Shown here piece by piece: positions 1-32,090 of a stretch of DNA of 32,090 nucleotides; position 1 is the first letter of the stretch; every line of letters begins with the position of its first letter. The notes beneath the pieces were generated by a model, which saw nothing but the letters and a program-made list of their open reading frames with translations, was not told the DNA's origin and made no database searches. The DNA is from Candidatus Jordarchaeia archaeon (GTDB lineage: Archaea > Asgardarchaeota > Jordiarchaeia > Jordiarchaeales > Jordiarchaeaceae): contig JAHQXB010000080.1 of the NCBI GenBank assembly GCA_029856435.1, positions 1 to 32,090 on the forward strand, written 5' to 3'. The position numbers and the translations under genes are program-made.

Positions 1-226
1 CGTTTTCCTCCAATTTTTAAGAACTACTTTAGAATATAAATTGTTCCCTATTCAAAAAGGTTGATGTGTTTGGCTCAAAAGCACCCACAGATGCAAAAAA
101 AGGGGTTCACTGTTATAAGGGGGTTTGGGGCGCTGTCGATACGTTTCATCATATCCTTGGCGTACTGGAAGTACATTTTACCTAAAGACAAAATAAAAAT
201 TGAGACACCTTCGGCTTATGAGTGGT

Positions 227-484
227 TTAGAGTGGTTTTATTTTAAGGATTCTGGATCTTAAGAAGCAGCGTTCCTCGCCCTTCAACCCGCAGAAAGCAA
301 ATATGCGTCTTCCCCTCTTCTCACGGACAACAAGAACGCGCTCAGTAACCTCACCCACCCCATCCCTGTAGAGCACCTCGTAACGGCAACCAACCTTAAC
401 AATGATTCTCGGAACATGAGCCGCTGCTCGCCCATCCTGCTGATCGCTTAATGGCGGCCTTTCTCCTTTGAGGGTCAATTCCAC
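227..484 (-). CDS. Small WYL-like (Sm/SH3-type barrel) domain ORF or fragment; start uncertain
   Basis: C-terminal ~55 aa YEVLYRDGVGEVTERVL...IFAFCGLKGEERCFLRSRI matches the WYL pattern Y..x.G..T.R......A.C.LR...R.F...RI. N-terminal part overlaps the amidohydrolase remnant and looks non-coding. Confidence 0.45.
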   Translation of the reverse strand: MELTLKGERPPLSDQQDGRAAAHVPRIIVKVGCRYEVLYRDGVGEVTERVLVVREKRGRRIFAFCGLKGEERCFLRSRILKIKPL

Positions 485-767
485 AAAGGCTAATGAAGCT
501 ATCGGGATACTTTTCTATTTCTGCCACGTAGTTGTTGTAGTCCTTGAAGGAAACGTCGCCCTTGTAGGCGAATTTGTAGCCCACAGCTACTATTACTGCT
601 CTGTCTATTCCCGCTTCGTCCATTTCTCTAATTAGCCTCTTAGAGGTTTCCTCCATCATGATTTTTGGGTTCAGGCCGAAACGTTTGGAAACCTCGATAA
701 GAATTTGTTTAAGTTCGGGGGACATGGGTTTTTCTTCCCAAACGTGGCAGTGCACATCAATAATCAA
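396..767 (-). pseudogene. Truncated amidohydrolase family 2 (TIM-barrel metallohydrolase) gene
   Basis: TTG at 767 gives IIDVHCHVW (DxHxH metal motif), then EMDEAGIDRAVIVA, NNYVAEI..YPDSFISLCGIDP. Family similarity ends near 440 and only ~110 aa of a normally ~280 aa protein remain. Confidence 0.7.
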
Positions 768-1196
768 ATTTTGCCAGCTCCTTCCATTATTGTCCATTTT
801 CAATTTTTTGAATCATACCCCTTTCACCAGTTTTCCCGACTATTCCTTTTCCCTAAAGAGGCTTTGTTGAATAATTTTAATTTTTCCAAAAAATTGGTTG
901 TTTTTTGAAATTTTTTCAAATTAACAATGTAAAATTGCAAAAAATTAAAAGGGTAAGGAAATTGAAAAAATAAAACTTTTTCAACAGAGCCAAAGGAGGA
1001 CGGGGGGTGAAAAGCTCCTTTTTTTGGACGCGTTTTGCCAAAAAAATAATCTTAACTCTTACTGGTGGAAGTGTTGATTAGAGGAAAAGGTTTGGTGGGG
1101 AAATATTTGCAGGCACCAAAAAACATATCTATATACTGTATATATTTTTATTTAAAGCACATTCACACCTGAATATTGGGATTTTGTGAGGGGAAA

Positions 1197-1559
1197 ATGT
1201 CTGAAAACGCAAATTTCATTAACAATCTGAAGAGAGAGTTGGCACCAATCTATGGGACCAGCAAAAAAGGCTTAGCCATCATATCAAAGATGGGTGAAAT
1301 ATTATACTCAGACATGGCAAGCGAAACCGAACAGAAAATACTCCGCTTCAAGCAAAGCTTCCAAGGCTTAACCCAAGGGTCAAACATTACCCTAGTAAAA
1401 GGCAAAGAAGCCACAATAATCATTTGCACCTCAGAAGAAACACTATTGGCCGTGGAAACCAAGCAACACGTAGGCTTCGCCCTCCTCTACCTCCACAACC
1501 TCATAAAAAAATACGAAGCCGAATTCAAAAAATACACAAAGAAAACACCACCAGCCTAA
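1197..1559 (+). CDS. Roadblock/LC7 (MglB)-like small alpha/beta protein
   Basis: 120 aa from ATG 1197 (GAGGGG upstream). LAIISKMGEILYS resembles the Roadblock beta-hairpin AIVSxDGxxIAS. Three short strands are followed by HVGFALLYL, resembling the NLGLIxxxM C-terminal helix. Confidence 0.55.
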   Translation: MSENANFINNLKRELAPIYGTSKKGLAIISKMGEILYSDMASETEQKILRFKQSFQGLTQGSNITLVKGKEATIIICTSEETLLAVETKQHVGFALLYLHNLIKKYEAEFKKYTKKTPPA

Positions 1560-1626
1560 AAAGGATAAGCCCGAAACGAAAAACACTAAAACAAAAAAAG
1601 GAGAAAAAGGAAGAAGTGTTCACACC

Positions 1627-3399
1627 TTACGCTTCTTCTGCCACTTTAGCTTTAGGTTTTACTTCTGCTTCTTCTTCCACCTTGGGCATTTCTACGCCTT
1701 CAAGCCAGATGGCGTTAATCATAGCCAGGTCTGGGGGAACAAGGTTGGCTTCCCGATCTACTATAACATCTATTACCGCTGGCTTATTGGATTTAACTGC
1801 GCGTTCCAAGGCCGGTCTAATCTGGCTGGGTTCAGTCACCCGTTCACCAAAACAGCCCATAGCCTGAGCCACAAGGTCGTATCTTACGTCGGTGAAGTCT
1901 ACACCCAAATATCTTTCTCCGAAGTTGAGCTTCTGTCCACCCTTAATCATTCCCCACTGCCTATCATTGTTTATAATTACTACTATGGGGACTTCAAGTC
2001 TGGCTGCTGTCTCCAGCTCCTGTATGTTTAACATGAAGCTTCCATCCCCACATACAGCATATACTGGTCTCTTGGGTTCCACGAGTTTCGCAGCGATGGC
2101 GTATGGCAGTCCTACTCCCAGGTGGCCGGAGTCTGCTGCTTGGAGGAATGTTCCCGGCTCATATATGAGATTCATGTAGGTGTACCAGAGTGCGGTGTTT
2201 CCCCCATCAACTATGCTTATGGCGTTTTTGGGAAAGAACTCTCTCACCTCCTTCATTAGCCGCATGGGGTGGATGGGTTTAACATCCGATTCTGCCAACT
2301 CTTTATAGCCTGCTCTCTGCATCTCCTGAGCCTGTCTGCAGGCTTGGATTCCCGGGTTGGGTGCCCTCTTGTTAGTCATTTTTTTGACTTCTTCAATGAG
2401 CAACCTTAGGGTGGCTTTAGCATCCCCCACTATGGCAACATCCACGTCACGGTTCACACCAATCATTTGGGGATCGATATCTATCTGTATGAATTTTTGT
2501 TCCTCAGGGGGTTTCCAGGCGGGGGGTTGACCCCAAAAATCATAGTCACACAGGCTGCTTCCCACAACAAGTACCACGTCTGCCTGGGACTGAGCGGTGA
2601 GAGCTCCATAGGTGGCAGCCGCAAAGTATAAGGGGTGATCGTTGGGCATAGCGTCCCTGGCGCACACTGTTCCCGTGACTGCTGCTCCCAAGTGTTCTGC
2701 CAGCTCCTGTATTTCTTTGCTGGCCTTTGACCTCATAACTCCTCCTCCGGGGTGGATTAGGGGAAACTTGGCTTCCACAAGCATTTTTGCCGCCTTTTTT
2801 ATTAGTTCTGGGTTTCCCACCGGAGGTGCTGTGGCGCGGTACCTTTCTGCGGGCACTACACGTACACTTTCTTCCGGACCCATTGCCGCTAGAACGTCTA
2901 CTGGAACGTCTAAGTGTACTGGTGCCGGTGCGCCTGAGACTGCTACTCGGAATGCTTGCCTTACCAGTTCCGGTATCCTCTTCCAGTGGGAAATGACTGC
3001 GTTCCACTTCACTACACCCTTGAATAGTTCAAGCTGGTCGCATCCCTGCGTAGACCCATGGTCTGGATATGATTTCCAGGTCTGGTTTTGCACTGTCAAA
3101 ACCACCATGGGTATATTGTCTGCGTATGCTGGGTATACTCCTGGCACTAGGTCGACTGCTCCTGGGCCTACTGTTCCTAGGCATACTCCGGGGATGCCTG
3201 TGAGGCGGGCGTAGGCGTCTGCCATGTGTGCTGCGGCTTGTTCGTGTCTGGTTCCAATGTATTTTATTCCCAGGTTTTCTCCTTCACGGTATATGGCGTC
3301 TATGAAGGGTAACCATTGGCCCCCCACGACTCCAAATATGTATTTCACTTTTTCTTGGGCGATACATCTTAGAAGTAGTTCGCCTCCAGAAATATTCAA
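1627..3399 (-). CDS. Thiamine-diphosphate-dependent enzyme (acetolactate synthase large subunit / 2-hydroxyacyl-CoA lyase superfamily), paralogue 1
   Basis: TRHEQAAAHMADAYAR (catalytic Glu), GPG, GHLGVGLPYAIAAK and ThDP motif GDGSF...NND. Start probably TTG 3399 after GGAGGTG; ORF track start is 3408. Confidence 0.92.
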   Translation of the reverse strand: MNISGGELLLRCIAQEKVKYIFGVVGGQWLPFIDAIYREGENLGIKYIGTRHEQAAAHMADAYARLTGIPGVCLGTVGPGAVDLVPGVYPAYADNIPMVVLTVQNQTWKSYPDHGSTQGCDQLELFKGVVKWNAVISHWKRIPELVRQAFRVAVSGAPAPVHLDVPVDVLAAMGPEESVRVVPAERYRATAPPVGNPELIKKAAKMLVEAKFPLIHPGGGVMRSKASKEIQELAEHLGAAVTGTVCARDAMPNDHPLYFAAATYGALTAQSQADVVLVVGSSLCDYDFWGQPPAWKPPEEQKFIQIDIDPQMIGVNRDVDVAIVGDAKATLRLLIEEVKKMTNKRAPNPGIQACRQAQEMQRAGYKELAESDVKPIHPMRLMKEVREFFPKNAISIVDGGNTALWYTYMNLIYEPGTFLQAADSGHLGVGLPYAIAAKLVEPKRPVYAVCGDGSFMLNIQELETAARLEVPIVVIINNDRQWGMIKGGQKLNFGERYLGVDFTDVRYDLVAQAMGCFGERVTEPSQIRPALERAVKSNKPAVIDVIVDREANLVPPDLAMINAIWLEGVEMPKVEEEAEVKPKAKVAEEA

Positions 3400-4109
3400 A
3401 ATATTCACACCTCCCAGAAATATGGGTTTTTCTCAAACGGTATTAGTTCGTAATTTTATTGTTTTTTTGATTTATTATTCTTTTTGGGTTTCCCTCTATT
3501 TTTGTTGTTAAATCTAATCCGTCGAAAACTTGTTTTTCGCCACATTTCCTTGGGTTCTTCCTTCATAGTTTAATTGTGAGTCTAGGTTTGTTGGGGGAAA
3601 GAGCTGTTGGTTGATTTCTTGGAAAGCCCAGTTGTAAACGCTTCACCGGGGGGTGGCTTTAGGGACTGAGCGTAAAAAGTTTTTAGTGCATTTGGATTCG
3701 GAGCACCTTTAGACAGGGGTAGTCCCTCAAATTAAATGGTTGGGTTTCAATGGGGAGGTACCCTAAGGGTAACAATTTTGAAAAGTTTTTTGTCATCTGG
3801 TGTTCCCCGGCATGAAATGGTTAATGAATTCTTCTTTCCAAAAAAGCGTTTTTGTCTTCTTTTTCACGGAGAGCAATATAACTATAACTAACGATAAAAA
3901 ACTTATTTCTCACGGGGGCTTCTTCTGGCGAAAATCACGTTAGAAAGCCAGTGCCAAAAGCATTCATCTGGGTGGTTCACGCCAAAAACTTTTTTGTGCC
4001 CTTTTATTGGGTTCTGCTCCCCATTTTCGATTCTTGATTCTTTCGTTGCTCCGGATTTCTTCTATTTCTATTGAGTCAACCTAACCACTTATAACAGGTG
4101 GATACTCTG

Positions 4110-4245: not shown

Positions 4246-4404
4246 TAGGGTACTTTTCTAGTTGCAGAGTATAGATGTGGTCGTGTTCATGTAACATAAT
4301 CGCCTTTTCTTCTGATTCTTTAAGTACATTAATAAACCTTTGTTGCAATTTAAGGAATTAAAACTAAAAGTGTTTTTTGAAAAGTTTGGTTGGGTGATTG
4401 ATTG

Positions 4405-5199
4405 ATGGAAAAAAGGTTGGAAGGTAGAGTTGCTCTGGTTACTGGGGCTGCCTCGGGAATTGGGCGGGCCATTGTTCTGCGGTTTGCGAGGGAAGGAGCG
4501 AAGGTTTCTGTGGTTGACATTAATATTGAAGGAGCGAGAAAAGTAGTTGAGGAAATTAAAGAATTTGGTGGAGAGGCTATTGCTGTTCAGTGTGATGTGA
4601 GTGACGAGGAGCAGGTGAAAAGGGCTGTTGCGGAGACTGAGCAAAGACTGGGAAGGATTGGAATTCTGGTAAACAACGCTGGAATCGGGGATGCGGGCCT
4701 AGTTCAGGATATGACCACGGAGCAGTGGCACAGAATGTTTAGGGTAACTGTTGACGGAGCATTTTACTTTACAAGAGCAGTTCTTAAATCCATGCAGAGC
4801 GGCGACCGAATCATTAACGTGTCCTCAAATGCGGCAGTTACGGGCATGGCGGCCGGCTCCCACTACGCTGCGGCAAAATCGGCAATAGTGGGATTCACCA
4901 AGTCGCTGGCGATAGAGATAGGATACAGAGGAATCACCGCAAACGTAATCGCTCCAGGATTCATAGATACACCTATATTGGCACCCTTCATAGCAGTTGC
5001 ACCCGAATTCTATAAGGAGATGCCTGTCCGCAGGCTGGGAAAACCAGAAGAAATCGCCGAAGTTGTGGCTCTACTGGCCTCACCACAAGCAAGCTTCATA
5101 ACGGGACAAGTATTCCTTGTAGATGGAGGAAGCACTCTTTTCAACTTGGTTCACCAGGCACCCTACAGAGCACTGGGACTCCACACCCTAGGAGTCTAA
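4405..5199 (+). CDS. Classical SDR, FabG/3-oxoacyl reductase-like
   Basis: [12 protein letters not shown], catalytic S and [22 protein letters not shown]. Confidence 0.93.
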
Positions 5200-5511
5200 A
5201 AATAAAAACTCGAAACGAAAGTTATGCAAGCGATGAAGCTCACAATTAGCAAGTTTTTCTCCCCCCTTCTCTTTCTCTTTCCAAAAATTTTTTGGCTTCT
5301 CTCCCCTTTTTTGGGTCTAGTCACCACAGCTCCATTGGGCTTATTTAGTTGTCTCGTATTTTCCCGTCTTTTTTTGGGCATTATTGGCTTTTGTTGTGAA
5401 AAAAATTTTTCAATATGTTTGGAGCACTTTTATGTGCATGCCTTTATAGGGCTTACCCTTTAAACAAAGTTTGTGATGAGTTGTACTTATGAGTTGTTTG
5501 GTGGTATTTTT

Positions 5512-6168
5512 ATGAAGTGTGCTTACTGTAGTGTTTTGGCTTGTGTTTTTGGCGGTGGAGAAAGGCTGCCTGCCGACTGTCCCATGAGTACTAGCAGTGA
5601 TGTTATGGTGAAGGCTAAGGAGCTTTATGAGGGGGATGTTGAGGTTAGAGAGCTGGCGAGGCAGTCAAGTATTGTGGAGGCAACGGGATATATGGAGTGG
5701 CCCCGGTTGAGGGACACCGTGGAGTTTGCCAAGAGAATGAAGTACAAGAAGTTGGGTGTGGCATTCTGCATAGGTTTGCATCGGGAGGCTGGTGCTGTGT
5801 GCCAGGTTTTGGAAGGGTTTGGGTTCGAGGTAGTTTCTGTATGCTGCAAAACTGGAGCCTTGTGGAAAAGGGATTTGGGCCTTCCCGAGGAATACATTGG
5901 GTACTCAAAGACGGGTTACCTTATTGGTGAAATTTCCTGCAATCCGGTGGCGCAGGCCTTGTACCTTAATGAGCAGAAGACTGAAATGAATGTGCTTGTG
6001 GGACTCTGCGTGGGCCACGATGTTCTGTTCACCAAGTTTTCAAAAGCAGGGGTAACCACCCTGATAGCGAAGGATCGTCCACTGGCACACAACCCCGCTG
6101 GAGCAATCAACACCTATTATTACAGCATGTATTTTGGTGAGTTGCAAAAGAGGATGAGTCAGAAATAG
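5512..6168 (+). CDS. DUF1847-family Cys-rich (putative metal-binding) protein
   Basis: MKCAYCxxxxC, RLRDTVEFAKRMKYKKLGVAFCIGL, SVCCKTG, CNPVAQA, GLCVGHD, KDRPLAHNP are characteristic blocks. Start ATG 5512. Confidence 0.85.
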   Translation: MKCAYCSVLACVFGGGERLPADCPMSTSSDVMVKAKELYEGDVEVRELARQSSIVEATGYMEWPRLRDTVEFAKRMKYKKLGVAFCIGLHREAGAVCQVLEGFGFEVVSVCCKTGALWKRDLGLPEEYIGYSKTGYLIGEISCNPVAQALYLNEQKTEMNVLVGLCVGHDVLFTKFSKAGVTTLIAKDRPLAHNPAGAINTYYYSMYFGELQKRMSQK

Positions 6169-6263: not shown

Positions 6264-8258
6264 TTAGGCTACTTCTCTGACGTCTTCTCCTAGTTTTGCT
6301 GCTTCTTCTGATTTTTCCTCGATTTTGGGCACTTGACAGCCTTCAAGCCACATTGAGTAAATGAAGTCCAGACCGGGTGGTGTGAGGGTTGCTTCCCTGT
6401 CGATTATTATGTCTAGTACTGCGGGTTTGTTTGATTTCACCGCCCTTTGGAGGGCGGGTCTGATTTCTCGGGGGTCTTCCACTCTTTCTCCATAGCACCC
6501 CATAGCTTTCGCGACTTGGTCATATCTTACGTCGATGAAGTCAACACCTATGAACCGTTCTCCAAAGTTTAGTTTTTGTACAGTCTTAATCATTCCCCAC
6601 TGACGGTCATTCATAATGATTACTACAAACGGCAACCCCAGTCTGGCTGCGGTTTCCAGTTCCTGTATGTTGAACATGAAGGCCCCGTCCCCACATATGG
6701 CGAAAACTGGTCTTTGGGGCTCGGCTAGTTTTGCTCCTATTGCGTATGGTAGTCCCACTCCAAGGTGCCCTGAATCTAAGGCTTGGAGGTGGGTTCCAGG
6801 CTCATATACTCGGTGTGCGAAAGTGTACCACATTACAGCGTTTCCACCGTCCAAGATGCTTATTGCGTTTTTGGGGAAGAAGTCTCTTACCTCTTTCGCA
6901 ACCCTCAAGGGGTGGATGGGTTTAATGTCTGACTCCATTAATTCCTTTAATCCTTGCTTCCCCATTTCTGCGACTTGTCTAAGTGCTTCAATTGCGGGGT
7001 TGGGTGCTTTTTTGTCGGTCAGCTTTTTTACCTCGTCTATTATTGCCCTCAGAGTAGATTTAGCGTCCCCCACAATGGCTAAATCCACATCTCTATTCAC
7101 TCCAATCATTTCGGGGTCCACATCTATCTGTATGAATTTTTGTTCTTCGGGACTCTTCCATCCCGGTGGTTGGCCCCAGAAATCGTAAACATTAAGAGTG
7201 CTTCCCACCACCAGCACCGTGTCCGCTTGGGTTTTGGCTGCCACGCCCCCATAATTTCCCGAGGCAAAATAGAATGGGTGTTCATCAGAGAGTACGTCTC
7301 GCGCAAAAGCTGTACCAGTCACTACTGCTCCAAGGTACTCGGCTAGTTCTGCCACTTCTTGGCTGGCCCTTGATCTGAGCACTCCTCCTCCACAGTGGAT
7401 TAAGGGAAATTTTGCTTCCACCAACATTTTTGCGGCTATCTTTACCAGTTCAGGATCTCCCGTGGCGGGCCTTGTGGCCCGGTATCTTTCTGCGGGAACG
7501 ATGCGAACATTTTCTATGGATCCCACTTCAAACAGTATGTTTACTGGGATGTCTAGGTGAACGGGCCCTGGTTGACCTGCTGTTGCGGTGCGGAATGCTT
7601 GTTGTACCATTTGTGGTATTCTTTTCCAGTGGGAAATCATGGCGTTCCACTTCACCACACCCTTAAATAGGCTAAGTTGATCGCATCCCTGACTGGAACC
7701 GTAGTCTGGGTAGGATTTCCAAGTTTGGTTTTGCACTGTCAAAACTACCAGGGGTATGCTGTCTGCATATGCTGGGTACACTCCGGGAATTAGGTCTGCG
7801 GCTCCCGGGCCTACTGTTCCTAGGCATACTCCGGGTTTGCCTGTGAGGCGGGCGTAGGCGTCTGCCATGTGTGCTGCGGCTTGTTCGTGCCGGGTTCCAA
7901 TATATTTTATTCCTAGGTTTTCGCCTTCCCGGTATAGGGCGTCCATAAAGGTTACCCATTGTCCTCCAACCACTCCAAAAATGTAGGGCACCTTTTCTTG
8001 GGCTAGGCAGTATAAGAGGAGTTCTCCTCCGGACCATTCCCGTCTTTCTGACAGTTCCGGGTATTTTGGTTTTTCGGCTTCTAGCTCCGTTTCAGGCTGT
8101 TCAGCTTCGATTTTTTTAACGGAAACCCGCTCTATCACTTTTTTCTCAACTATTTTCTTTTCTTCTCTCTCAACTATTTTTTGTTCTTTTGCATCTTCCG
8201 TTCTTTTTAGGGTCATTTTTGTCCTCCCAAAAACTTTAGTTAAGGATTGTTGTTTCAA
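6264..8258 (-). CDS. ThDP-dependent enzyme paralogue 2 with a ~70 aa charged N-terminal extension
   Basis: Same motifs as 1627-3399 with long identical stretches (YIGTRHEQAAAHMADAYARLTG, LTVQNQTWKSYPD). Extension contains repeated KIVE. TTAAATA TATA-like element lies ~20-25 nt upstream of TTG 8258. Confidence 0.92.
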   Translation of the reverse strand: MKQQSLTKVFGRTKMTLKRTEDAKEQKIVEREEKKIVEKKVIERVSVKKIEAEQPETELEAEKPKYPELSERREWSGGELLLYCLAQEKVPYIFGVVGGQWVTFMDALYREGENLGIKYIGTRHEQAAAHMADAYARLTGKPGVCLGTVGPGAADLIPGVYPAYADSIPLVVLTVQNQTWKSYPDYGSSQGCDQLSLFKGVVKWNAMISHWKRIPQMVQQAFRTATAGQPGPVHLDIPVNILFEVGSIENVRIVPAERYRATRPATGDPELVKIAAKMLVEAKFPLIHCGGGVLRSRASQEVAELAEYLGAVVTGTAFARDVLSDEHPFYFASGNYGGVAAKTQADTVLVVGSTLNVYDFWGQPPGWKSPEEQKFIQIDVDPEMIGVNRDVDLAIVGDAKSTLRAIIDEVKKLTDKKAPNPAIEALRQVAEMGKQGLKELMESDIKPIHPLRVAKEVRDFFPKNAISILDGGNAVMWYTFAHRVYEPGTHLQALDSGHLGVGLPYAIGAKLAEPQRPVFAICGDGAFMFNIQELETAARLGLPFVVIIMNDRQWGMIKTVQKLNFGERFIGVDFIDVRYDQVAKAMGCYGERVEDPREIRPALQRAVKSNKPAVLDIIIDREATLTPPGLDFIYSMWLEGCQVPKIEEKSEEAAKLGEDVREVA

Positions 8259-8382: not shown

Positions 8383-9477
8383 TTAATAGTGTCTGAAGGC
8401 TATTTTTGTGGATTTATGTTTTTTCTTGTCCAGTTGGGCTTCGAAGGCCTGTTTCCATTCTTCAAGCTTGAAGGTTTTTGTGAGTAGAAGCTGGTTCTTG
8501 ACTTTTCCCTTCTCCTGCAGCTCTAAAGCTATGCTGAATGGGGTTCTGGCAACTTGTTCTAGGGGGTAGCCGTTGACGCCATATAGTTTGAGTTCTTTGA
8601 CGCTGAACATGAGGAAATCTATGGATGCTTCTCTCATCAATCCCACAAATATGATTTCTCCCCGTGGCTTTGTTATGTTAATTGCGTCCTGCAGTGTTTG
8701 TGCACTTCCCACTCCGTCGTAGGTCTGGTCTACTCCCTTGCCTGTTGCCATGATTATCTCTGTGGAGGGTGTTTCACCCTTTTCCAAGCAGTAAACGTGG
8801 TCTGCTCCCAGCTGCTCAGCCAGTTTTGCTTGATACTCAAACTCGGTTGCCACAAAGGTTTCCAGCGCCCCCATTACCCTACAGGCTTGAAGGATCTGTA
8901 AACCGATGGCACCCGCACCAATTATGGCGACTTTTTTGCCGACTGGGTTTCCCACGAAACAGGAGTGGATTCCGACTGCTAGTGGTTCGGTGAGAACTGC
9001 ACTCTCATCGGAAACATTGTTGGGAATTTTGTAAATTCGGGATTTGTGTGCTAAGAAATACTCTGCAAAGCCTCCCCCGTTCACCTTATTGTATCCCAAT
9101 CCTCCGCCCAGCAGAGCCTGATTATAGCAGAGACTGTAGCGACCCAGCTTACACATATCGCAGGGCTCCAAACCTAACTCGGCACACCCCGCAGCTCCAT
9201 CCACAACCACCCTGTCTCCCACATTTAAACTCTCCACGCCTTCACCAATCTCGCTTATGACCCCCACTACTTCGTGGCCGAAGATGAGGGGTTTGGGCAT
9301 AAAATCAGCCAGCGCCATCTTACCAGTAATAATTCCCATGTCAGAGCCACATATGCCACACAGTTTTGTTTTAATCAGCACCCAGTCCTTTTTGGGAACA
9401 GGCTTCTCGACATCTTCCAAATAGAAACCTTGGGGGTAGGGTTTACCGTCCCATAGAAGAGCCCTCAAACATTCCAC
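8383..9477 (-). CDS. Zn-dependent medium-chain alcohol dehydrogenase (MDR)
   Basis: GICGSD and GHE (catalytic Zn), GC..(7)..CDMC......LC (structural Zn), GAGAIG Rossmann motif. Confidence 0.93.
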   Translation of the reverse strand: MECLRALLWDGKPYPQGFYLEDVEKPVPKKDWVLIKTKLCGICGSDMGIITGKMALADFMPKPLIFGHEVVGVISEIGEGVESLNVGDRVVVDGAAGCAELGLEPCDMCKLGRYSLCYNQALLGGGLGYNKVNGGGFAEYFLAHKSRIYKIPNNVSDESAVLTEPLAVGIHSCFVGNPVGKKVAIIGAGAIGLQILQACRVMGALETFVATEFEYQAKLAEQLGADHVYCLEKGETPSTEIIMATGKGVDQTYDGVGSAQTLQDAINITKPRGEIIFVGLMREASIDFLMFSVKELKLYGVNGYPLEQVARTPFSIALELQEKGKVKNQLLLTKTFKLEEWKQAFEAQLDKKKHKSTKIAFRHY

Positions 9478-9909: not shown

Positions 9910-10641
9910 TTAGAACATGAAGCAATGTGCGACGCAGTGGGGCTCGAAGTATTCTACTAGTTTGAAGTCCCAGTTGTAGCCGGTTACTAGTTTGAGGTAT
10001 TGGCAGTTGTACTGCATTATTCCGCATTGTATGGTGCCGTCACGCCTTTTTGCTAGGCCTTCCTCATAGGCTAGTTTGCATGCTTCCTTAAGGTAGCATG
10101 TAGGATAGATAATGTGTATGCTTCCGTCTCCGTTTTTCTTGTAGCCCATTTGGTGGTGAGCCATCATGGTTTGGATGGTGTCTTTTCTATATTTTTCGAG
10201 TATTCCATCTATGTCGATGTTTCGTTCTTCACTGTTTTCAGCTTTTTCCAGGTCTTTGGTGAAGCTGTGTCCCACTTCCATGCTTGCAGCGCCGATTCGT
10301 CCCTCAAAAAAGTTTTCCACATTAAACTGGGCGTATACTGCTGCACAGTAGGGGAAGGGATAATTGTCAGCCAGAGAAATTAGATACTCTTTTAACTGGT
10401 CTAAGGTTTTGATTTCTTGGGCTGGCTCTTCTCCCACCTTCCTTTTCACAAATCGCAAAGCGTGCTTTATGAAGTTGATGGTATAAACTGGACCGAAGGT
10501 TTTTTCCACGGCTTTATAACCTTCGATCACCAGTCCTGTTAGAAGTTTTGTGTCTGGAAGCTCGTAGGGAGCCTTCTCCAACATTTTGAAATCAGAGATC
10601 TTGAAAACCGCCAATTTTAACACCAGCTTCACTAATCGCAT
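9910..10641 (-). CDS. Hypothetical protein with Cys-rich C-terminal V4R-like domain; paralogue of 18096-18779
   Basis: AVEKTFGPVYT..IKHAL..VGEEP..EIKTLDQLKEY aligns with AVARMFGPVFT..VKYTL..LGEKP..NIETLEGVVEY. Shared CxxxxxC...C......C...D....C pattern. V4R fold assignment is inferred. Confidence 0.75.
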   Translation of the reverse strand: MRLVKLVLKLAVFKISDFKMLEKAPYELPDTKLLTGLVIEGYKAVEKTFGPVYTINFIKHALRFVKRKVGEEPAQEIKTLDQLKEYLISLADNYPFPYCAAVYAQFNVENFFEGRIGAASMEVGHSFTKDLEKAENSEERNIDIDGILEKYRKDTIQTMMAHHQMGYKKNGDGSIHIIYPTCYLKEACKLAYEEGLAKRRDGTIQCGIMQYNCQYLKLVTGYNWDFKLVEYFEPHCVAHCFMF

Positions 10642-18779: not shown

Positions 18780-19063
18780 TGTGTTCCACCTCACATCTAT
18801 TAGTTGGCCTTTACTACCTAAAATTCAAAAAAAGGTAATAATATTATTTGTATTTGAATTAAACATTTCTAGTTTATATTAATTTTCACTATAAAAAGTT
18901 GGCTGCCGAACTGTTCTAAGATCCCCAAAAGGGAGGCGGCAAAGAGAGGCGGGACAGGTAGAGTCCGCTTCGAATTTCAGAATTTTATTACAAAATCTTT
19001 GGTGAACTTCCCCTACTGTTTTGGGCATATGGCCCTTTTTTTAGTCCACCTATTTTGAAACTG

Positions 19064-20197: not shown

Positions 20198-21409
20198 TTG
20201 AAGATTGTGATTGTTGGGTTTAGTTTGGCGGGTTTCACTGCTTGCAGATATCTTCTCCAAAACGCTCCTGGCAATAGCATAGAAATTTTTACTGATGAGA
20301 AGTATCCCTATTATCCTCGCCCTTCCCTCTACAGGGTTTTATCTGGAGAATCTCCAGTTAGTGATATTTTTATTTATCCCCTCAGCTGGTATGAGGAGCG
20401 AAATGTTAAAGTTCACTTGGGTACTCCAGTAAAATCCATTAACACCAGTGAGAACCACATTGTTTTGGCTGGGGGAGAAAGTGTTTCCTATGATAGTCTT
20501 CTCCTGGCTAATGGTGCCCGCTCCTTCATTCCCCCAGTTAAGGGGTCTGATAGGAGGGGAGTGTTTGCCCTAAGAACCATTGATGACGCCTTAGCCATAA
20601 GGGAGTACGCTAAAAAAAGAAGGAGCGCGGTTGTGGTGGGTGGCGGCCTACTGGGGTTGGAAATATCCGCCGCCTTGAGAAAGTTGGGTTTAAAGGTTAC
20701 CATATTGGAGTTTGCGCCTTGGCTTCTTCCAAGGCAAATTGACCGGGAGGGTTCAAATGTGCTCATGGGGGAGTTTGAGAAAATGGGGATGGAAATCAGG
20801 TGTGGTGCCCAAACAGAGGAGATTGTGGGAAACGCTGAAGTTTCAGGCTTAAAACTAAAAGGCGGAGAAACCATCCAGGCAGACTTAGTTGTTTTCGCCA
20901 CTGGAATTCGCAGCAACATTGAACTGGCCAAAGAAGCGGGAATAAATGTGAACAGGGGAGTCGTTGTGGATGACTATATGAGAACCAGCGTTGAAAACAT
21001 TTATGCTGCGGGAGACATAGCGGAGCACAGGGGAAGAGTATACGGCATAATTCCGGCCACCACGGAGCAGGCTCAGATAGCCGCAGCAAACATGATTGGG
21101 AAAAAAGTGGCTTACAAGGGAACAGTCGCCCTAAACACGCTAAAAGTGGCAGGCATAGACCTCACCTCAATAGGACTGGTAAACCCTGAAACCCAGGACT
21201 ACGAACAGATCCGAAAAATAGAAGCGGAGAAATGCCTCTACAAAAAAGTAGTCCTAAAAGACGGAAAAATAGTGGGAGCAATAATCATAGGGGACAGAAA
21301 AAGCGCAAAACCCATGACCGACATAATAAAAGAAGAAATAAATGTGGAAAAAGTAAAAAACAAAATCCTTGAAAAGGAATACGACCTCAACCAACTACTA
21401 AAAAAATAA
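20198..21409 (+). CDS. FAD/NAD(P)H-dependent oxidoreductase (NADH:rubredoxin oxidoreductase / NirB N-terminal-like)
   Basis: YYPRPSL, LLLANGA, VVVGGGLLGLE, TSVENIYAAGD, and C-terminal LKVAGIDLTSIG..YKKVVLKDGKIVGAIIIGD domain. No rubredoxin or siroheme domain. Confidence 0.9.
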   Translation: MKIVIVGFSLAGFTACRYLLQNAPGNSIEIFTDEKYPYYPRPSLYRVLSGESPVSDIFIYPLSWYEERNVKVHLGTPVKSINTSENHIVLAGGESVSYDSLLLANGARSFIPPVKGSDRRGVFALRTIDDALAIREYAKKRRSAVVVGGGLLGLEISAALRKLGLKVTILEFAPWLLPRQIDREGSNVLMGEFEKMGMEIRCGAQTEEIVGNAEVSGLKLKGGETIQADLVVFATGIRSNIELAKEAGINVNRGVVVDDYMRTSVENIYAAGDIAEHRGRVYGIIPATTEQAQIAAANMIGKKVAYKGTVALNTLKVAGIDLTSIGLVNPETQDYEQIRKIEAEKCLYKKVVLKDGKIVGAIIIGDRKSAKPMTDIIKEEINVEKVKNKILEKEYDLNQLLKK

Positions 21410-23334: not shown

Positions 23335-23407
23335 CCGATTGGCTTTGAAAAAATTTAAAAATCATTGATACAATAATACTTAAAATCATTTTGAGGGATG
23401 AGTGCGA

Positions 23408-24979
23408 ATGTCCAAGAAGAAGGAGACTGTTGGAGAAACTGAGGGAATTAAGGGTAGAAAGAGGTCATTTATGGCTATTAGTGCGGCGAACTTTGTGGAC
23501 AGGGCGGATATGCAGGCGCTTCCCACCTACTACACTTCCATTGGCCGGGAACTAGCCGTTACTCGTGGGGCTTTGGGTTTCATAACTTCGACGAGGTCAG
23601 CTGTTCAAACAATTGTTGCTCCCCTCTGGGGATATTTGGCGGACAAGTATTCGCGGAGGGTGGTTCTAACAATCGGCTGCTTAATTTGGGGTGCTTTTAC
23701 TCTCCTGTGTGCCTATGCTGGCGATTTTACATCACTGCTCTTCTTTAGACTGCTGGCAGGATTCGGCTTGGCGACCATTATACCTACAGGTTTTTCGCTG
23801 ATTGCTGACTTTTTCAAGCCTGAGGATAGAGGCAAGTGGCTGGGAATTTTCCAAATGTTTGGGGTTCTGGGTGTCGCCATTGTTGTGCCCGTTTTGGGTA
23901 TGCTGGACGCAAAAAGCTACACCTTTGGACTCGAGTCTAACCTTTACCAACTGTACCTGTACTGGCTGGTGTATCCCCCCATCCTTGACATACTGAATGA
24001 ACTTCTAGTGTTTGACACTTTGATGAAGTACACCGTGCATTATGGAGCCTGGAGAATGGGGTTCATACTGGTTGCGATCATAAGCTTAATAGTGGCTGGT
24101 GTGGTGTGGTTCTTTGTTAAGGAGCCTGCTAGGGGCGCAATGGAGAAGGAGCTTAAGGACATAATTACTGTGGAAGCCGCGGAAAAATATAAAATTGAGA
24201 GGAAAGCTGTAGGCGAGATTCTGCGAACCAGAACTATGCAAATAATAATAATTCAGGGAATGCTCGGCTACATGCCTTGGATTGTTTTGCAGGCCTGGAT
24301 TGTGCACTGGCTTGAAAGCGTGAGATACATTCCGCCGAGTGATGCAACATTAGTTTTTGCAGTACTGGTAATCGGTGTGGCTCTGGGCAATGGGCTTGGA
24401 GGCTGGCTGGGAGATAAGGGTGAAAAGAAGAGTTTTAACAGGGGCAGAATTATTGTGGCTCAGATTTCTGTGTTCTCGGGAATCCCCCTCACTTTGTTTG
24501 CGCTCACCATACCCCTTTCCCTTCCACACTACATGGCTCTGATGTTCATTACGGCTGTTTTGATTAGTTGGGCTGGTCCCGCAGCTGTTCAGCCAATGGT
24601 TGCCAACGTAACCAAACCAGAGGTGAGAAGCACCTCCTTCTCCATTGAGCAAATGTTTGAAGGAGGCTTCGCAGCCATAGCCGCAGTCATCACGGGATAC
24701 CTAGCAGACACCATTAACGGTGGGGTCGCAGGCATAACGATGCAAACCATAACTCCCTACATAGGGTACTGGCTAGGAGTTCTCCCCCTTCCCCTGCTGC
24801 TAGCTCTATTCACAGTTTCGGGACAATCGCTAACCACAGCAATGCTCATAACAATAACCATTCCCTGGACACTTTGCCTGCTTGTGTGGTTCTTCGCATA
24901 CAGATTCTATCCCCGGGATAGGGAAAGGATCTTCAAAATTCTGGAAGAAAGGCGAAAAGAAATGACCAAAAAACCCTAA
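23408..24979 (+). CDS. MFS transporter (Spinster-like)
   Basis: FVDRADMQALP in TM1, motif A GYLADKYSRR, FFKPEDRGK, GGWLGDK, and about 12 or more hydrophobic segments. Confidence 0.92.
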   Translation: MSKKKETVGETEGIKGRKRSFMAISAANFVDRADMQALPTYYTSIGRELAVTRGALGFITSTRSAVQTIVAPLWGYLADKYSRRVVLTIGCLIWGAFTLLCAYAGDFTSLLFFRLLAGFGLATIIPTGFSLIADFFKPEDRGKWLGIFQMFGVLGVAIVVPVLGMLDAKSYTFGLESNLYQLYLYWLVYPPILDILNELLVFDTLMKYTVHYGAWRMGFILVAIISLIVAGVVWFFVKEPARGAMEKELKDIITVEAAEKYKIERKAVGEILRTRTMQIIIIQGMLGYMPWIVLQAWIVHWLESVRYIPPSDATLVFAVLVIGVALGNGLGGWLGDKGEKKSFNRGRIIVAQISVFSGIPLTLFALTIPLSLPHYMALMFITAVLISWAGPAAVQPMVANVTKPEVRSTSFSIEQMFEGGFAAIAAVITGYLADTINGGVAGITMQTITPYIGYWLGVLPLPLLLALFTVSGQSLTTAMLITITIPWTLCLLVWFFAYRFYPRDRERIFKILEERRKEMTKKP

Positions 24980-26098: not shown

Positions 26099-26100
26099 GG

Positions 26101-29218: not shown

Positions 29219-29409
29219 ATTTGGCAACTCCTAAACATATTTTCCGACGTACAGGATTAGGCGTCTCATAAAGTTTATGCTTTAAAATCAATGTCCGAAT
29301 TATCCCGCTAATAAGACCAAATATTAGTAAAAAGTGCTTAAAGTTCTCTTCCCTAAATAGTGTGGAGCGTTCACGGACATTCATTTTGAGGGGTTTAAGG
29401 CAGGGAAAG

Positions 29410-29862
29410 CTATTTCATGTGCTCCCACAGTATAACTCCACCTATGAGGCCCAGTAAGCCTCCAAAGTTAAATAAGGCAAAGAATCCCATCAAACCAAAA
29501 ACGGTTAAGATTACAGCATACCACTTGTTGCCGCTCCATACCCCAATGGAACTTAGAAGGATGACAAAACCGTGAACAGCCACAATCACTCCGAAGGTAT
29601 ATAGGTTCCAAATAATTGCGCCCACGTAGTAGCCCCCTAACGGGCCCAGGGAAATTAAATTGATGAAGGAAACAAAATATGTGGACAAGTAGGTCAAAAG
29701 CTGCTCCAAAAATTGTGGAAAGAAAACAGAAAGCCCCATCAAAAATAGAATGTCCCCCCTCAAACTAACACTCAAAAACATTATCACCAGCCCACTCAGC
29801 ACCCCATATAAGCCACCAATACATCCCAAAACAACAAACGCCTTCAGCGAACCAGAACCCAT
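29410..29862 (-). CDS. Small multi-pass membrane protein (DUF4064-like), tandem paralogue A
   Basis: VLGCIGGLYGVLSG ... FNFGGLLGLIGGVIL aligns with the neighbouring gene. Confidence 0.78.
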   Translation of the reverse strand: MGSGSLKAFVVLGCIGGLYGVLSGLVIMFLSVSLRGDILFLMGLSVFFPQFLEQLLTYLSTYFVSFINLISLGPLGGYYVGAIIWNLYTFGVIVAVHGFVILLSSIGVWSGNKWYAVILTVFGLMGFFALFNFGGLLGLIGGVILWEHMK

Positions 29863-30037
29863 GCAAAAACCCCTTTTAATTCAACTAACACTAAACCCTT
29901 TTTTAGATTTCCACACTTAAAATAGTATCTCTGAAACCCAGCTTACACATACTACACCCCCCACTTGGAAATCAAAAAACAGGAAAAAGCAAAAAAAGAA
30001 AAAAATTGGAGAGAGTTTATTTGTTTGCAGAATCTTC

Positions 30038-30478
30038 TTATTTGGCTTTGTAGTAGAGCACCAGGCCGGCGATGAGAGCCAGCAGTCCTCCAAGGTTGAA
30101 GATTAGGAAGCCAATGAATCCAATGATTGCCATTAAAATTGCGCCCCACGCCTTTCCTTTCATTGCGCCAAATGCTCCCAAGAGTATCAGTAAACCAAGA
30201 ATTATGACGACGATTCCAAGAATGGATAGAGCGGAGCTCGCCTGCAAACCTAAAAGTGGAGCAAGCGGACCAAAGGTGAAGGCTGCCAATGTTGGAGAGA
30301 AGTACTGGACAATCTGGAGAATTGCTGCAATAGAACCAGGATACAGAGAGCCCAGTGCGAGAACGGTGTTAATGGTGTTCGCGGCACCCACTCCAGCTAT
30401 GGCAATAGCGATTCCGGAGAGTATCCCGTAGAGTCCACCCAAGATGCCTAAAATTGCCCAGGCTTTTTCTTCTGCCAA
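30038..30478 (-). CDS. Small multi-pass membrane protein (DUF4064-like), tandem paralogue B
   Basis: ILGILGGLYGILSG ... FNLGGLLALIAGLVL. TTG start after GGAG. Confidence 0.82.
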   Translation of the reverse strand: MAEEKAWAILGILGGLYGILSGIAIAIAGVGAANTINTVLALGSLYPGSIAAILQIVQYFSPTLAAFTFGPLAPLLGLQASSALSILGIVVIILGLLILLGAFGAMKGKAWGAILMAIIGFIGFLIFNLGGLLALIAGLVLYYKAK

Positions 30479-30579
30479 GAGTCTTTCCTCCTACTTTCTC
30501 CCCCCCAAATCAGGGGGGTTTTTCCTGAAATCAATTTTTCTATACTTCATTAATTTCCTATCAGCTCCTTATAAGCTTT

Positions 30580-30910
30580 ATCGCCCAAGACCCCCAACAT
30601 TACGACAATTGCATAATCAACACTAAACCCCACAACCATAAAAAATTCCTCCCCCCCAAACCCTTCCCCGCACCGCCAGTCCCCCTGTAAATTTCGCAAA
30701 AACTCCACCTCCAAAGCAGAAACTCCAATACCCACAACCAGCACAAAGCACACTAACAAAAAAGCAATAAAAAGGAGAAAAACGAAAAAACCACAAAATG
30801 GAGAACCCCAAGAGATTTGAACCAAGAAAACCAATTTGACCCCCAACACCCCCTTCAAAAACACAATGACCCACCACAAAACAAAAAGAAAAAACCATTA
30901 CAAAAAGCAC
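30580..30910. other. Extreme A/C-rich low-complexity intergenic tract
   Basis: Plus strand is almost devoid of G and T (e.g. cacaaccagcacaaagcacactaacaaaaaagc). No periodic repeat unit. Confidence 0.7.
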
Positions 30911-31340
30911 CAAAAAATTTCCCGTGCGTATTTAGGTTACAAATTGAATGAGGATTATTCCCCCTCTTTTGCAAAATGGAAGTTCCCATTCCATATGTTC
31001 AAACAGGTCTCCTTGTGGCTGGTTTTTGTGGATTGATTTCTGCCCTGACCCTGCATCCTCAGTCCTTCCGCCCATCATTTTTATACATGTTTATTTATAA
31101 GGTGGAGGGAATTTTCATATGAGCTCAGCCACCAAAAAAGGAAATCACCACAAATAGGAGTGCCACCAGAACATATGGTCCCACTCTCTTTTCTTCAAGA
31201 TTCAGAGGATTAGATACTACAAAAACTTGTTTTTTGTTAAATTTGGAGAAGTTTTATAATGTTTGTTTTGTTTAATTTATGGTGAAGACGATGGTGTGGC
31301 GGGGCTATGTGGTTTCATGTTTAGGTTTAAAAATTTGTGG

Positions 31341-31945
31341 ATGAGTAAAATAGTTTTAATCTTTTTTATGGTGCTATCCGCGTATGCCTTAGGTTTCCTT
31401 GACCTGTTTTCCGATCTGCCGGCGTCCTCCCAGCTTTCAAACTTGGTTTGTGAGTCGAAATGGTCCCCACTACTCTTTGGCTTCAAAGGATCAGCTATCC
31501 GCTTGTAGTATCCTAGTATTACAACTGGAACCATATTAAACATAAAGGTTACCGTGCGTCTCACAGGTTGACCAAGTAACTTTTAACATTTCCAATGTTC
31601 AAGCCAAGAACTATAATACTATATGCACCGCCGAGCTTCCCAGCGACGGCTATTCTTTGAGGGGCCTAACATATGCTATGTCTTTCAACTTGAGCCAAAC
31701 ATGCTACCTATACAATATTAGCGCATACCTTCTTGGTGGCGTACCTGCCAAAAAGATTGATTTCGGAATATACAATGCTACTTGGAAGTCTACAGGGCAA
31801 AGAATTGAATTGAGCCAAAACATTACCGGGTGGAAAAGCTATTCTGCGTCCTTCCTCTTTCACCAAACTTCCGAGCCGTTCAAACAGGTAAAAGTTATTG
31901 GGTTGCCTGAATATTTTTATGGTGCTCGTATAATACATTTTTCAA
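31341..31945 (+). pseudogene. Decayed secreted/surface glycoprotein gene; not shown as one ORF in the track
   Basis: ATG 31341 gives signal-peptide-like MSKIVLIFFMVLSAYALG. Stop at 31506, then a frameshift near 31560. Frame 1 from 31546 is open to the window end: QVTFNISNVQAKNYNT...FNLSQTCYLYNISAY...YNATWKSTGQRIELSQNITGWKSY, with five N-x-S/T sequons. Confidence 0.6.
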
Positions 31946-32090
31946 CTGTTTTTGTTTATTTTTTTTCTATTTTTTTAGTTTTTTCTTTATATTTTTGTTT
32001 TTGGTGTTTTGCTGAGTTGTTTTTTATTTTTCGTCAATGTTTTCGATTTTTGGTAAATGCTTTTGGGGGCAATTTGAAGGCAAAAAAGTA

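What the first reader, a model, noticed from the sequence alone, without database searches (positions are those of the whole stretch)
1..32090. Gene-scale, strand-symmetric G/T (5') to A/C (3') compositional gradient
Many genes on either strand start G/T-rich and end A/C-rich at synonymous sites. Hand counts of G/T at third codon positions, first 20 vs last 20 codons: AsnB-like 15 vs 1, FAD oxidoreductase 16 vs 2, SDR 14 vs 5, MDR (minus strand) 11 vs 4. On the plus strand this gives a saw-tooth: abrupt A/C-to-G/T jumps in intergenic DNA (e.g. ~9860, ~1620) and a decline across the next 1-3 kb, with extreme tracts at 30580-30910 (A/C) and 31940-32090 (T/G). ThDP paralogue 1 is an exception (7/20 at its 5' end), so the unit may be a transcription or chromatin domain rather than the gene. 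Ordinary replication skew or codon bias does not flip inside genes. Possible causes (all inference): single-strand deamination from convergent sense plus antisense transcription, dispersed replication initiation, chromatin-linked repair, or selection for 5'-3' mRNA end pairing.
Basis: partly seen in the sequence, partly recalled or inferred. Interest (0 to 1): 0.7.

Follow-up and report, generated by a model that had tools for sequence, protein, structure and literature searches.

The report
Operon-scale strand-composition sawtooth, Asgard archaeon
In this Asgard archaeon (Freyarchaeia) the freely variable DNA letters of each transcription unit drift from G/T-rich at the start to A/C-rich at the end and reset after the transcript; the pattern is real, genome-wide and confined to this lineage among the genomes sampled, its cause is unknown, and it looks like the trace of a strand-specific DNA process acting in bursts.

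Summary
All four hand counts reproduce exactly. Genome-wide, keto skew (G+T-A-C) at 4-fold sites falls from +0.02 to -0.24 along genes, and 70% of 2306 genes fall.

The unit is the transcription unit, not the gene. The 3' drop is missing at operon-internal junctions (-0.06 against -0.29/-0.30). The size of the drop does not grow with unit length (0.3 to 6 kb), and the skew ends about 25-50 nt past the stop codon.

The gradient is present in the genus, weaker in the order, and flat in four other Asgard genomes and 45 bacterial loci. It sits on top of an ordinary replichore skew and does not depend on it.

Tested and not supported: amino-acid composition, T-run avoidance, specific 5'-3' mRNA pairing, deamination alone.

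New here, from four ~92%-identical genomes:
- Recent substitutions are nearly flat along units and erode the 3' A/C richness (900:693).
- Single lineages carry strand-coordinated clusters over a few hundred bases that include A<->T and C<->G changes.
- One gene shifted 62:8 towards G/T on one lineage.

Best reading (about 0.45): an episodic, strand-specific mutation or repair process tied to transcription units. Selection on transcript composition is not excluded.

This scan found the same pattern earlier in other genomes of this lineage. I found no description for archaea in the papers I searched.

The parts
1..32090 (.). Whole contig (C111 of the MAG): plus-strand keto-skew sawtooth on top of an overall plus-strand G/T excess (replichore-type skew)
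   Evidence: replichore layer shown in the complete genome of the genus
4402..5199 (+). SDR gene: G/T fraction at 4-fold sites 0.79 to 0.31 by quintile
5473..6168 (+). DUF1847 gene: 0.78 to 0.40; the plus strand jumps up in the spacer before it (5200-5470)
8383..9477 (-). MDR alcohol dehydrogenase: 0.56 to 0.21 on its own strand
9910..10641 (-). Hypothetical 243-aa gene: 0.59 to 0.06; the plus-strand jump at about 9600-9900 lies between its 3' end and the 5' end of the MDR gene
12799..13758 (+). AsnB-like gene: 0.64 to 0.14. The A/C-rich state runs about 60 nt past the stop codon. Its orthologue shifted 62:8 towards G/T on the stem lineage of three sister species
18096..18794 (-). Hypothetical 232-aa gene: 0.58 to 0.06
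20198..21409 (+). FAD/NAD oxidoreductase: 0.60 to 0.26, with an A/C-rich 3' end
23402..24979 (+). MFS transporter: 0.63 to 0.34
1627..3408 (-). ThDP enzyme paralogue 1: an exception, reversed or flat (0.21 to 0.47)
6264..8258 (-). ThDP enzyme paralogue 2: flat at about 0.3. In sister species G004, positions 6900-7200 carry 19 plus-strand amino-to-keto changes against 1 the other way, including 8 consecutive A>G
29690..29907 (-). Extreme tract (A/C on the plus strand): the G/T-rich 5' part and upstream leader of a small membrane-protein gene (29410-29862)
30573..30937 (-). Extreme tract, about 79% A/C on the plus strand. The 109-codon ORF in it (30550-30879) is probably an artefact, because G/T-only DNA has no stop codons. 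The stretch 29351-30923 that holds most of it aligns at 83% (G003) and, as far as 30635, 79% (G004) identity
31884..32090 (+). Extreme T/G tract at the contig end. Its last ~140 nt (about 31950-32090) are a repeat that occurs as inverted pairs about 3.9 kb apart in three relatives
1448..1633 (.). Extreme A/C tract just left of the jump at about 1620

Best explanation
Composition is set at two levels. The first is an ordinary replichore-scale keto skew. The second is a gradient along each transcription unit: the coding strand runs from about balanced or G/T-rich at the 5' end to strongly A/C-rich at the 3' end, and returns to neutral within about 50 nt after the stop codon.

I read the second level as the accumulated footprint of a DNA-level, strand-asymmetric mutation or repair-synthesis process that is bounded by transcription units. 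It acts in episodes on patches of roughly 100-1000 nt. It shifts one strand towards keto (or amino) bases through all four substitution types: A<->G, C<->T, A<->T and C<->G. Between episodes, an almost strand-symmetric background of point substitutions slowly erodes the pattern.

Shown: the pattern, its unit, its scaling with length, its confinement to this lineage among the genomes sampled, the clustered strand-coordinated changes in single lineages, and the present net erosion.

Inferred: that the cause is mutational and not selective, and that transcription sets the boundaries. The enzyme or pathway is not identified.
For: 1. The gradient is at 4-fold sites and is the same in all 12 neighbouring-base contexts: T/A odds fall x0.49-0.63 and G/C odds x0.63-0.84. 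Searches give the genome-wide figures.
2. The unit is the transcription unit. Keto skew at the 3' end is -0.06 when the next gene follows within 20 nt on the same strand, and -0.29/-0.30 when the gap exceeds 150 nt. The drop is about 0.24-0.27 for units of 0.3-2 kb and 0.16-0.18 for 2-6 kb, so it does not grow with length. The skew stops 25-50 nt after the stop codon, and spacers are neutral.
3. It is lineage-specific and heritable. It is present in the complete Freyarchaeia genome of the genus, weaker in the order, and flat in four other Asgard genomes and 45 bacterial loci. Per-gene skew correlates between species whose 4-fold sites are only 46% identical (r=0.61).
4. It is independent of replication direction.
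5. Changes cluster by strand within single lineages. Pairs of transitions on the same branch go the same keto/amino way in 55.9% of cases under 30 nt apart, 54.6% at 30-100 nt, 52.8% at 100-300 nt, and 50% beyond 1 kb. Pairs on different branches are at 50% at every distance. A<->T and C<->G transversions co-cluster in the same direction. Example runs: 8 consecutive A>G, and 12 G>A within 160 nt, nearly all at third codon positions.
6. A gene-sized burst: the AsnB-like gene on the stem of three sister species has 62 amino-to-keto changes against 8 the other way (A>G 25, C>T 22, A>T 10, C>G 5). It is about 33% diverged in DNA, while its flanks are about 10% diverged.
7. Skew extends into untranslated DNA next to genes.
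Against: 1. In 280 kb of four-species alignments, the summed recent substitutions do not maintain the gradient. The equilibrium they imply is nearly flat (+0.04 to -0.05), and the 3' third is gaining keto bases (900:693, CI of the ratio 1.16-1.47, on all four branches). A parsimony artefact explains a ratio of only 1.06.
2. Most strongly directional windows go towards keto on the coding strand, even near 3' ends (20 against 6 in the last 40% of units). So the step that builds the A/C-rich ends was not caught in action. It has to be rare and large, or older.
3. A drop that does not grow with the unit's length, and the involvement of every keto/amino substitution type, would also fit selection or a fixation bias on composition.
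4. There are no expression, transcript-end or polymorphism data.
Confidence: 0.45

Rival explanations
1. Selection, or another fixation bias, acts on transcript composition. It favours an A/C-rich, poorly folding, G-poor 3' part and tolerates or favours a G/U-rich 5' part. Possible reasons include termination, decay, avoiding R-loops, or blocking antisense read-in. Mutation pushes the other way.
For: The skew is confined to the transcribed span and ends about 25-50 nt past the stop codon. The drop does not grow with the unit's length. All keto/amino substitution types shift, not only transitions: the 5'/3' ratio of ratios is 1.87 for A<->T and 1.62 for C<->G, against 0.99 and 1.12 for the two transition pairs. 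3' segments fold less (mean MFE -14.4 against -19.9 kcal/mol mid-gene). A recent excess of amino-to-keto changes at 3' ends is what unpurged, mildly harmful mutations would look like.
Against: Hundreds of synonymous sites per unit would each need to be under selection. At about 4% divergence per branch most differences are fixed, so a flux ratio of 1.30 is hard to obtain at mutation-selection balance. Clustering by strand within single lineages, absent between lineages, and a 62:8 burst that also changed the protein to 63% identity, do not look like site-by-site selection. Many genes are flat or reversed. No specific 5'-3' pairing was found. Skewed tracts also lie upstream of a promoter-like TATA element, outside the downstream transcript.
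Confidence: 0.27
2. DNA synthesis starts at the spacers between transcription units and runs inward on both strands, with random meeting points. This could be dispersed replication, recombination-dependent replication, or long-patch repair. It would be a small-scale version of the human skew N-domains.
For: The polarity (an upward jump at boundaries on the plus strand whichever way the genes point) and the straight decline whose slope scales with unit length are what that model predicts.
Against: Spacers are neutral, not most skewed with a flip inside them. Operon-internal junctions lack the jump. The genus shows a normal two-replichore skew, and the gradient is the same in co-oriented and head-on genes. 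About 2000 start sites would be needed in 3.5 Mb. Recent substitutions show no such asymmetry.
Confidence: 0.1
3. Single-strand deamination (C>T, A>G) of the non-template strand by sense transcription at 5' ends and by antisense transcription at 3' ends.
For: The skew is bounded by transcripts. Many clustered changes are A>G plus C>T on one strand. Most directional windows are amino-to-keto on the coding strand, as transcription-associated mutagenesis predicts.
Against: The jump is strongest at convergent gene ends and weakest at divergent promoters. Recent A>G/T>C and C>T/G>A ratios do not change along units (0.99 and 1.12). A>G is as common as C>T in clusters, and A>T and C>G share the direction. 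I did not test whether spontaneous deamination alone could give these proportions. A drop that does not grow with length argues against decay from a start site.
Confidence: 0.13
4. Artefact of assembly, binning or my ORF calling.
For: The genome is a MAG with 181 contigs. Extreme tracts are over-represented at contig ends (24 of 201). G/T-only DNA creates spurious ORFs.
Against: The gradient is seen in Pfam-verified genes, in a manually closed genome of the genus, in orthologous regions of independently assembled relatives, and is absent when the same pipeline is run on other genomes.
Confidence: 0.02

Closest known systems
[quoted passage not shown]
   Same: The skew changes sign within a gene and is tied to transcription. 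It is seen at 4-fold sites, reaches into flanking untranslated DNA, affects amino-acid usage, and its cause is unresolved between mutation and adaptation.
   Different: The polarity is opposite: fungi are C-biased at 5' ends and G-biased at 3' ends, whereas here 5' is G/T-rich and 3' is A/C-rich. In fungi the AT skew is roughly uniform; here the T/A shift is the larger part. Here the unit is a prokaryotic operon and the drop does not grow with its length.
[quoted passage not shown] 2021, PMC8256042)
   Same: Intense, positively correlated GC and TA skews, strongest at third codon positions. Both signs occur on one strand, amino-acid usage is affected, and the mechanism is unknown. The extreme tracts here look alike.
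   Different: GRINS are defined as duplicated regions over 500 bp with over 80% identity that undergo gene conversion. The window has no such repeats. The pattern here is genome-wide and ordered along transcription units.
Replication-associated strand skew (G/T-rich leading strand) and human skew N-domains
   Same: Same base classes, and the same sawtooth shape of upward jump then straight decline. A true replichore-scale keto skew is also present in this genus.
   Different: The scale is 0.3-6 kb, not a replichore or about a megabase. Boundaries follow transcription units, spacers are neutral, and the pattern is independent of replication direction. The comparison with N-domains rests on my own knowledge of that literature.
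Transcription-associated strand asymmetry (G+T excess on the coding strand, strongest near the start site, as in mammals)
   Same: It is confined to the transcribed span. Recent clustered changes are mostly amino-to-keto on the coding strand.
   Different: That asymmetry keeps one sign along the transcript. Here the 3' part is strongly A/C-rich, and the effect at the 3' end is the larger one. The description of the mammalian case is from my own knowledge.

Membership tests
Replication-associated strand skew | The sign changes only at the origin and terminus, at replichore scale | tested here: not met
   The sign flips within every transcription unit. A separate replichore layer exists: in the complete genome, plus-strand against minus-strand genes have a G/T fraction of 0.50 v 0.41 at 0.1 Mb and 0.40 v 0.48 at 2.7 Mb.
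Replication-associated strand skew | The skew depends on gene orientation relative to the fork | tested here: not met
   The gradient is present in both co-oriented genes (+0.08 to -0.18) and head-on genes (-0.06 to -0.25).
Fungal-type opposite 5'/3' skews (McLean and Tirosh) | The sign changes between gene ends at 4-fold sites and reaches into untranslated flanks | tested here: met
Fungal-type opposite 5'/3' skews (McLean and Tirosh) | The coding strand is C-biased at the 5' end and G-biased at the 3' end, with roughly uniform AT skew | tested here: not met
   GC skew at 4-fold sites goes from -0.09 at the 5' end to -0.26 at the 3' end, and TA skew from +0.08 to -0.23. The polarity is opposite and the AT part is the larger one.
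GRINS | Intense, positively correlated GC and TA skews, strongest at third codon positions | tested here: met
GRINS | A duplicated region over 500 bp with over 80% identity to another region of the same locus (gene conversion) | tested here: not met
   The only direct repeat in the window is 300 nt at 69% identity, between the two ThDP paralogues.
Transcription-associated mutational asymmetry | Confined to the transcribed region | tested here: inconclusive
   The skew ends 25-50 nt after stop codons and continues across operon junctions. True transcript ends are not known.
Transcription-associated mutational asymmetry | One sign along the transcript, with excess C>T and A>G on the coding strand | tested here: not met
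   3' parts are A/C-rich. The ratios of recent complementary transitions do not change along units.
Transcription-associated mutational asymmetry | Strength scales with expression | not testable with these tools
   No RNA data.
Skew N-domains (origin-bounded sawtooth) | Upward jumps coincide with replication initiation sites | not testable with these tools
   Only the shape could be tested: polarity and scaling with length fit, but neutral spacers do not.

The most novel reading that the evidence does not exclude
Freyarchaeia/Jordarchaeia, and perhaps other lineages, have an undescribed DNA transaction bounded by transcription units. It could be patchy, strand-specific repair synthesis or hypermutation. 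It rewrites one strand towards G/T or A/C through all substitution types, in bursts large enough to re-code whole genes. The operon-scale sawtooth would be its long-term footprint, and it may be the same unknown process that makes GRINS in bacteria.
Probability: 0.35. Interest if true: 0.8.

Novelty: new variant of a known kind. Interest (0 to 1): 0.58.

Why it matters
If the cause is mutational, these close relatives of eukaryotes have a strong, local, strand-specific mutation or repair process that follows transcription units. Such a process can drive a gene to 63% protein identity while its neighbours stay about 90% identical in DNA. That would affect how divergence, horizontal transfer, codon usage and phylogeny should be read in Asgard genomes. 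It would also offer a genome-wide system for the unexplained keto/amino skews first seen in polyketide synthase genes.

If the cause is selective, it points to an unrecognised rule for how archaeal messages are built.

In practice, the skew marks transcription-unit boundaries from sequence alone. The extreme tracts create false ORFs and coincide with breaks in assemblies.

Tried and rejected
- Amino-acid composition: rejected. The gradient holds at 4-fold sites in all 12 neighbouring-base contexts.
- Avoidance of T-runs (premature termination) or selection for A-runs: rejected as the main cause. The shift is no stronger next to T.
- The gene as the unit: rejected in favour of the transcription unit.
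- Bidirectional promoters as the source: disfavoured. Divergent spacers show the weakest jump and convergent ones the strongest.
- Specific 5'-3' mRNA pairing: cognate duplexes are no stronger than non-cognate ones.
- Dependence on replication direction: none.
- Steady position-dependent transition asymmetry (a deamination gradient): not seen in 22,544 aligned 4-fold sites.
- Parsimony artefact as the cause of the flux imbalance: simulation gives a ratio of 1.06 against 1.30 observed.
- Pure relic of an ancient process: unlikely by a rough hand estimate. From the rates and the 46% identity at 4-fold sites with the complete genome, only about 40% of a gradient would survive since that split. 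Yet both species show strong gradients.
- NucS/EndoMS mismatch specificity as the lineage-specific factor: NucS is present, and canonical MutS gave only weak hits, in all gradient-bearing genomes. The same holds for the flat genome G011, so it is not sufficient.
- 5'-neighbour preference: the tallied 5' neighbours of changed C and A were spread over all four bases. I ran no control for base frequencies, so this is a weak negative for a deaminase-type motif.
- Rfam scan of the window: no matches.
- Hyper-diverged syntenic genes as a general sign of bursts: mixed. Some show no composition shift and look like allele replacement or paralogues.
- Not done: an expression proxy and a survey of reverse transcriptases.


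Full report
**What the window is.** The window is the whole 32,090-base contig C111 of a 3.54-Mb, 181-contig MAG. Its HpaB-type gene is 97% identical to one from 'Candidatus Freyarchaeota archaeon SQRJ_82' and 91% to Ca. Jordarchaeum madagascariense. A genome of the same genus held by the tools has exactly the length (3,576,204 bp) of the published complete Freyarchaeia genome from wetland soil. Its authors report a cumulative GC skew consistent with bidirectional replication (PMC11291895).

All four hand counts reproduce exactly. Most genes on either strand fall steeply in G/T fraction at 4-fold sites: SDR 0.79 to 0.31, AsnB-like 0.64 to 0.14, the 243-aa gene 0.59 to 0.06, the 232-aa gene 0.58 to 0.06. 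Six minus-strand genes are flat or reversed.

Genome-wide, I called 2825 non-overlapping ORFs with my own caller. Keto skew at 4-fold sites falls steadily from +0.017 to -0.239 over gene deciles. T falls from 0.33 to 0.23, G from 0.177 to 0.153, A rises from 0.28 to 0.36 and C from 0.21 to 0.26. Of 2306 genes, 70.5% fall. The fall appears in each of the 12 contexts defined by the preceding and following base: T/A odds x0.49-0.63 and G/C odds x0.63-0.84. So it is explained neither by amino-acid composition nor by avoidance of T-runs.

**The unit is the transcription unit.** Where the next gene follows on the same strand within 20 nt, the 3' end is not A/C-rich (-0.06). With a gap over 150 nt it is -0.29 (same strand) or -0.30 (opposite strand). 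Likewise, 5' ends preceded by such a junction carry on from the upstream gene's value. The drop is about 0.24-0.27 for predicted units of 0.3-2 kb and 0.16-0.18 for 2-6 kb, so it does not grow with length and the slope scales roughly with 1/length. Around stop codons with long spacers, all-site skew is -0.21 in the last 25 nt and -0.15 in the first 25 nt after the stop. From about +50 nt it is zero, and upstream spacers are also neutral. On the plus strand the upward jump occurs at all four gene arrangements. It is strongest at convergent pairs (-0.09 to +0.08/+0.11) and weakest at divergent pairs (-0.04 to +0.01).

**It was found only in this lineage among the genomes sampled.** The same pipeline gives the following:
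- the complete genome of the genus: -0.03 to -0.17;
- two genomes of the same order: +0.07 to -0.02 and +0.09 to -0.03;
- four other Asgard genomes: flat, noisy or slightly reversed;
- 60 bacterial loci pooled (654 genes): flat;
- 45 bacterial loci taken singly: mean drop -0.007, none above z=3.

Between this genome and the complete genome (77% median protein identity, 46% identity at 4-fold sites), per-gene G/T fraction correlates at r=0.61 and the first-half minus second-half difference at r=0.31.

**A separate replichore layer exists.** In the complete genome, plus-strand genes are richer in G/T than minus-strand genes at 0.1 and 0.9 Mb (0.50 v 0.41; 0.49 v 0.42). They are equal at 1.8 Mb, and the relation is reversed at 2.7 Mb (0.40 v 0.48). 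This explains why plus-strand genes in the window are richer in G/T overall. The unit-level gradient is present in both co-oriented and head-on genes.

**Recent substitutions.** Three sister species are 92-94% identical to this genome. I aligned 280 kb in all four and assigned three-against-one differences at 22,544 shared 4-fold sites to terminal branches. Three results follow.

First, the ordinary substitution process is almost flat along units. The equilibrium keto skews it implies by quintile are +0.035, -0.049, -0.014, -0.045 and -0.045 (sd about 0.03). The observed values run from -0.02 to -0.215. The ratios A>G/T>C and C>T/G>A do not change between the 5' and 3' thirds (x0.99 and x1.12). 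A>T/T>A and C>G/G>C change by x1.87 (z=2.4) and x1.62. The 3' third is gaining keto bases, 900 against 693. The ratio is 1.30, with a block-bootstrap CI of 1.16-1.47, and the direction is the same on all four branches. A simulation of a stationary process gives only 1.06 from the parsimony artefact.

Second, changes cluster by strand within single lineages. Same-branch transition pairs go the same keto/amino way in 55.9%, 54.6%, 52.8%, 50.9% and 50.2% of cases at under 30, 30-100, 100-300, 300-1000 and over 1000 nt. Different-branch pairs stay at 50%. A<->T and C<->G transversions co-cluster with transitions in the same direction. Examples include 19:1 in 300 nt of the ThDP2 gene in one sister species, with eight consecutive A>G, and twelve G>A within 160 nt elsewhere, nearly all at third codon positions. 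At the level of genes, 19 of 98 gene-by-branch tests exceed |z|=2.

Third, a gene-sized burst. The AsnB-like gene is about 67% identical in DNA and 63% in protein between this genome and the three sister species, while its flanks are about 90% identical. Two outgroups show that the change lies on the sisters' stem. It comprises 62 amino-to-keto changes against 8 the other way (A>G 25, C>T 22, A>T 10, C>G 5).

One caution applies. Most strongly directional windows go towards keto on the coding strand, even near 3' ends. The step that builds A/C-rich 3' ends was therefore not seen directly.

**Reading.** The following are each disfavoured for the reasons given under the rival explanations and under tried and rejected: amino-acid composition, codon choice for translation, T-run avoidance, specific 5'-3' pairing, replication direction, a steady deamination gradient, and bidirectional promoters.

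Two readings remain. One is an episodic, strand-specific mutation or repair process bounded by transcription units. I prefer it because of the clustering within single lineages, the gene-sized burst that also changed the protein, and the skew in untranslated flanks. The other is selection, or a fixation bias, on transcript composition. It fits the confinement to transcripts, the drop that does not grow with length and the involvement of all keto/amino substitution types.

A rough hand estimate argues against a pure relic. From the rates and the 4-fold identity, only about 40% of a gradient would survive since the split from the complete genome.

NucS is present, and canonical MutS gives only weak hits, in all gradient-bearing genomes. 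The same is true of a flat one, so this does not explain why the gradient is confined to this lineage.

**Comparison with what is known.** The closest published cases are the opposite GC skews at fungal gene ends (PMC3315797) and GRINS (PMC8256042). The fungal case has the opposite polarity and a uniform AT skew. GRINS share the correlated third-position skews of unknown cause, but are defined by duplication, which the window lacks. My searches found no description of an operon-scale keto/amino gradient in archaea.

This scan had already reported the same pattern in other genomes of this lineage (e1-5396231, e1-5396160).
- the substitution-level evidence;
- the scaling with length;
- the independence from replication direction;
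- the test of 5'-3' end pairing;
- the controls in other genomes.

Noticed in passing
window 31950-32090 (contig end): The T/G-rich end of the contig is a repeat of about 140 nt. In G003, G004 and the complete genome G005 it occurs as inverted pairs about 3.9 kb apart (76-86% identity). This looks like the ends of a mobile or invertible segment and probably explains the break in the assembly.
   Followed up: partly
window 860-990; also 30989-31179, 3770-3904, 15118-15291, 17736-17824: Short dispersed repeats (about 90-190 nt) with dozens of copies at 70-88% identity in the sister genomes and several in this genome. They look like MITEs.
   Followed up: no
window 12799-13758: The AsnB-like gene is only 63% identical in protein to the gene at the same position in three sister species, whose flanks are about 90% identical in DNA. 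It is closer (71-73%) to the copies in the two more distant species of the genus. The extra change lies on the sisters' stem and is strongly directional.
   Followed up: yes
genome-wide; contig ends: Of 201 extreme-skew tracts, 24 lie within 300 nt of a contig end. Genes cut off by contig ends have the most extreme values (3' ends -0.36). Extreme tracts seem to break short-read assemblies.
   Followed up: partly
L009 (Ignisphaera sp. MAG contig) and L021 (Chloroflexia MAG chromosome): The Ignisphaera contig shows a strong gradient in the same direction (drop 0.39, z=5.7, 6 genes). The Chloroflexia locus shows a reversed one (z=-4.9). Similar patterns may exist outside Asgard archaea.
   Followed up: no
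window 29410-29862 and 30038-30478 (minus strand): Two paralogous small membrane proteins (33% identity, no Pfam family) lie in tandem. The ORF at 30550-30879 upstream of them is probably an artefact of G/T-only DNA, which has no stop codons.
   Followed up: partly
G000 C44:5651-5980 and C89:14733-15155; relatives G001-G020: NucS/EndoMS is present, and only a weak MutS-like paralogue was found, in this genus, its order and two other Asgard genomes. Six other Asgard genomes have a canonical MutS (four without NucS, two of them with only weak NucS hits).
   Followed up: partly
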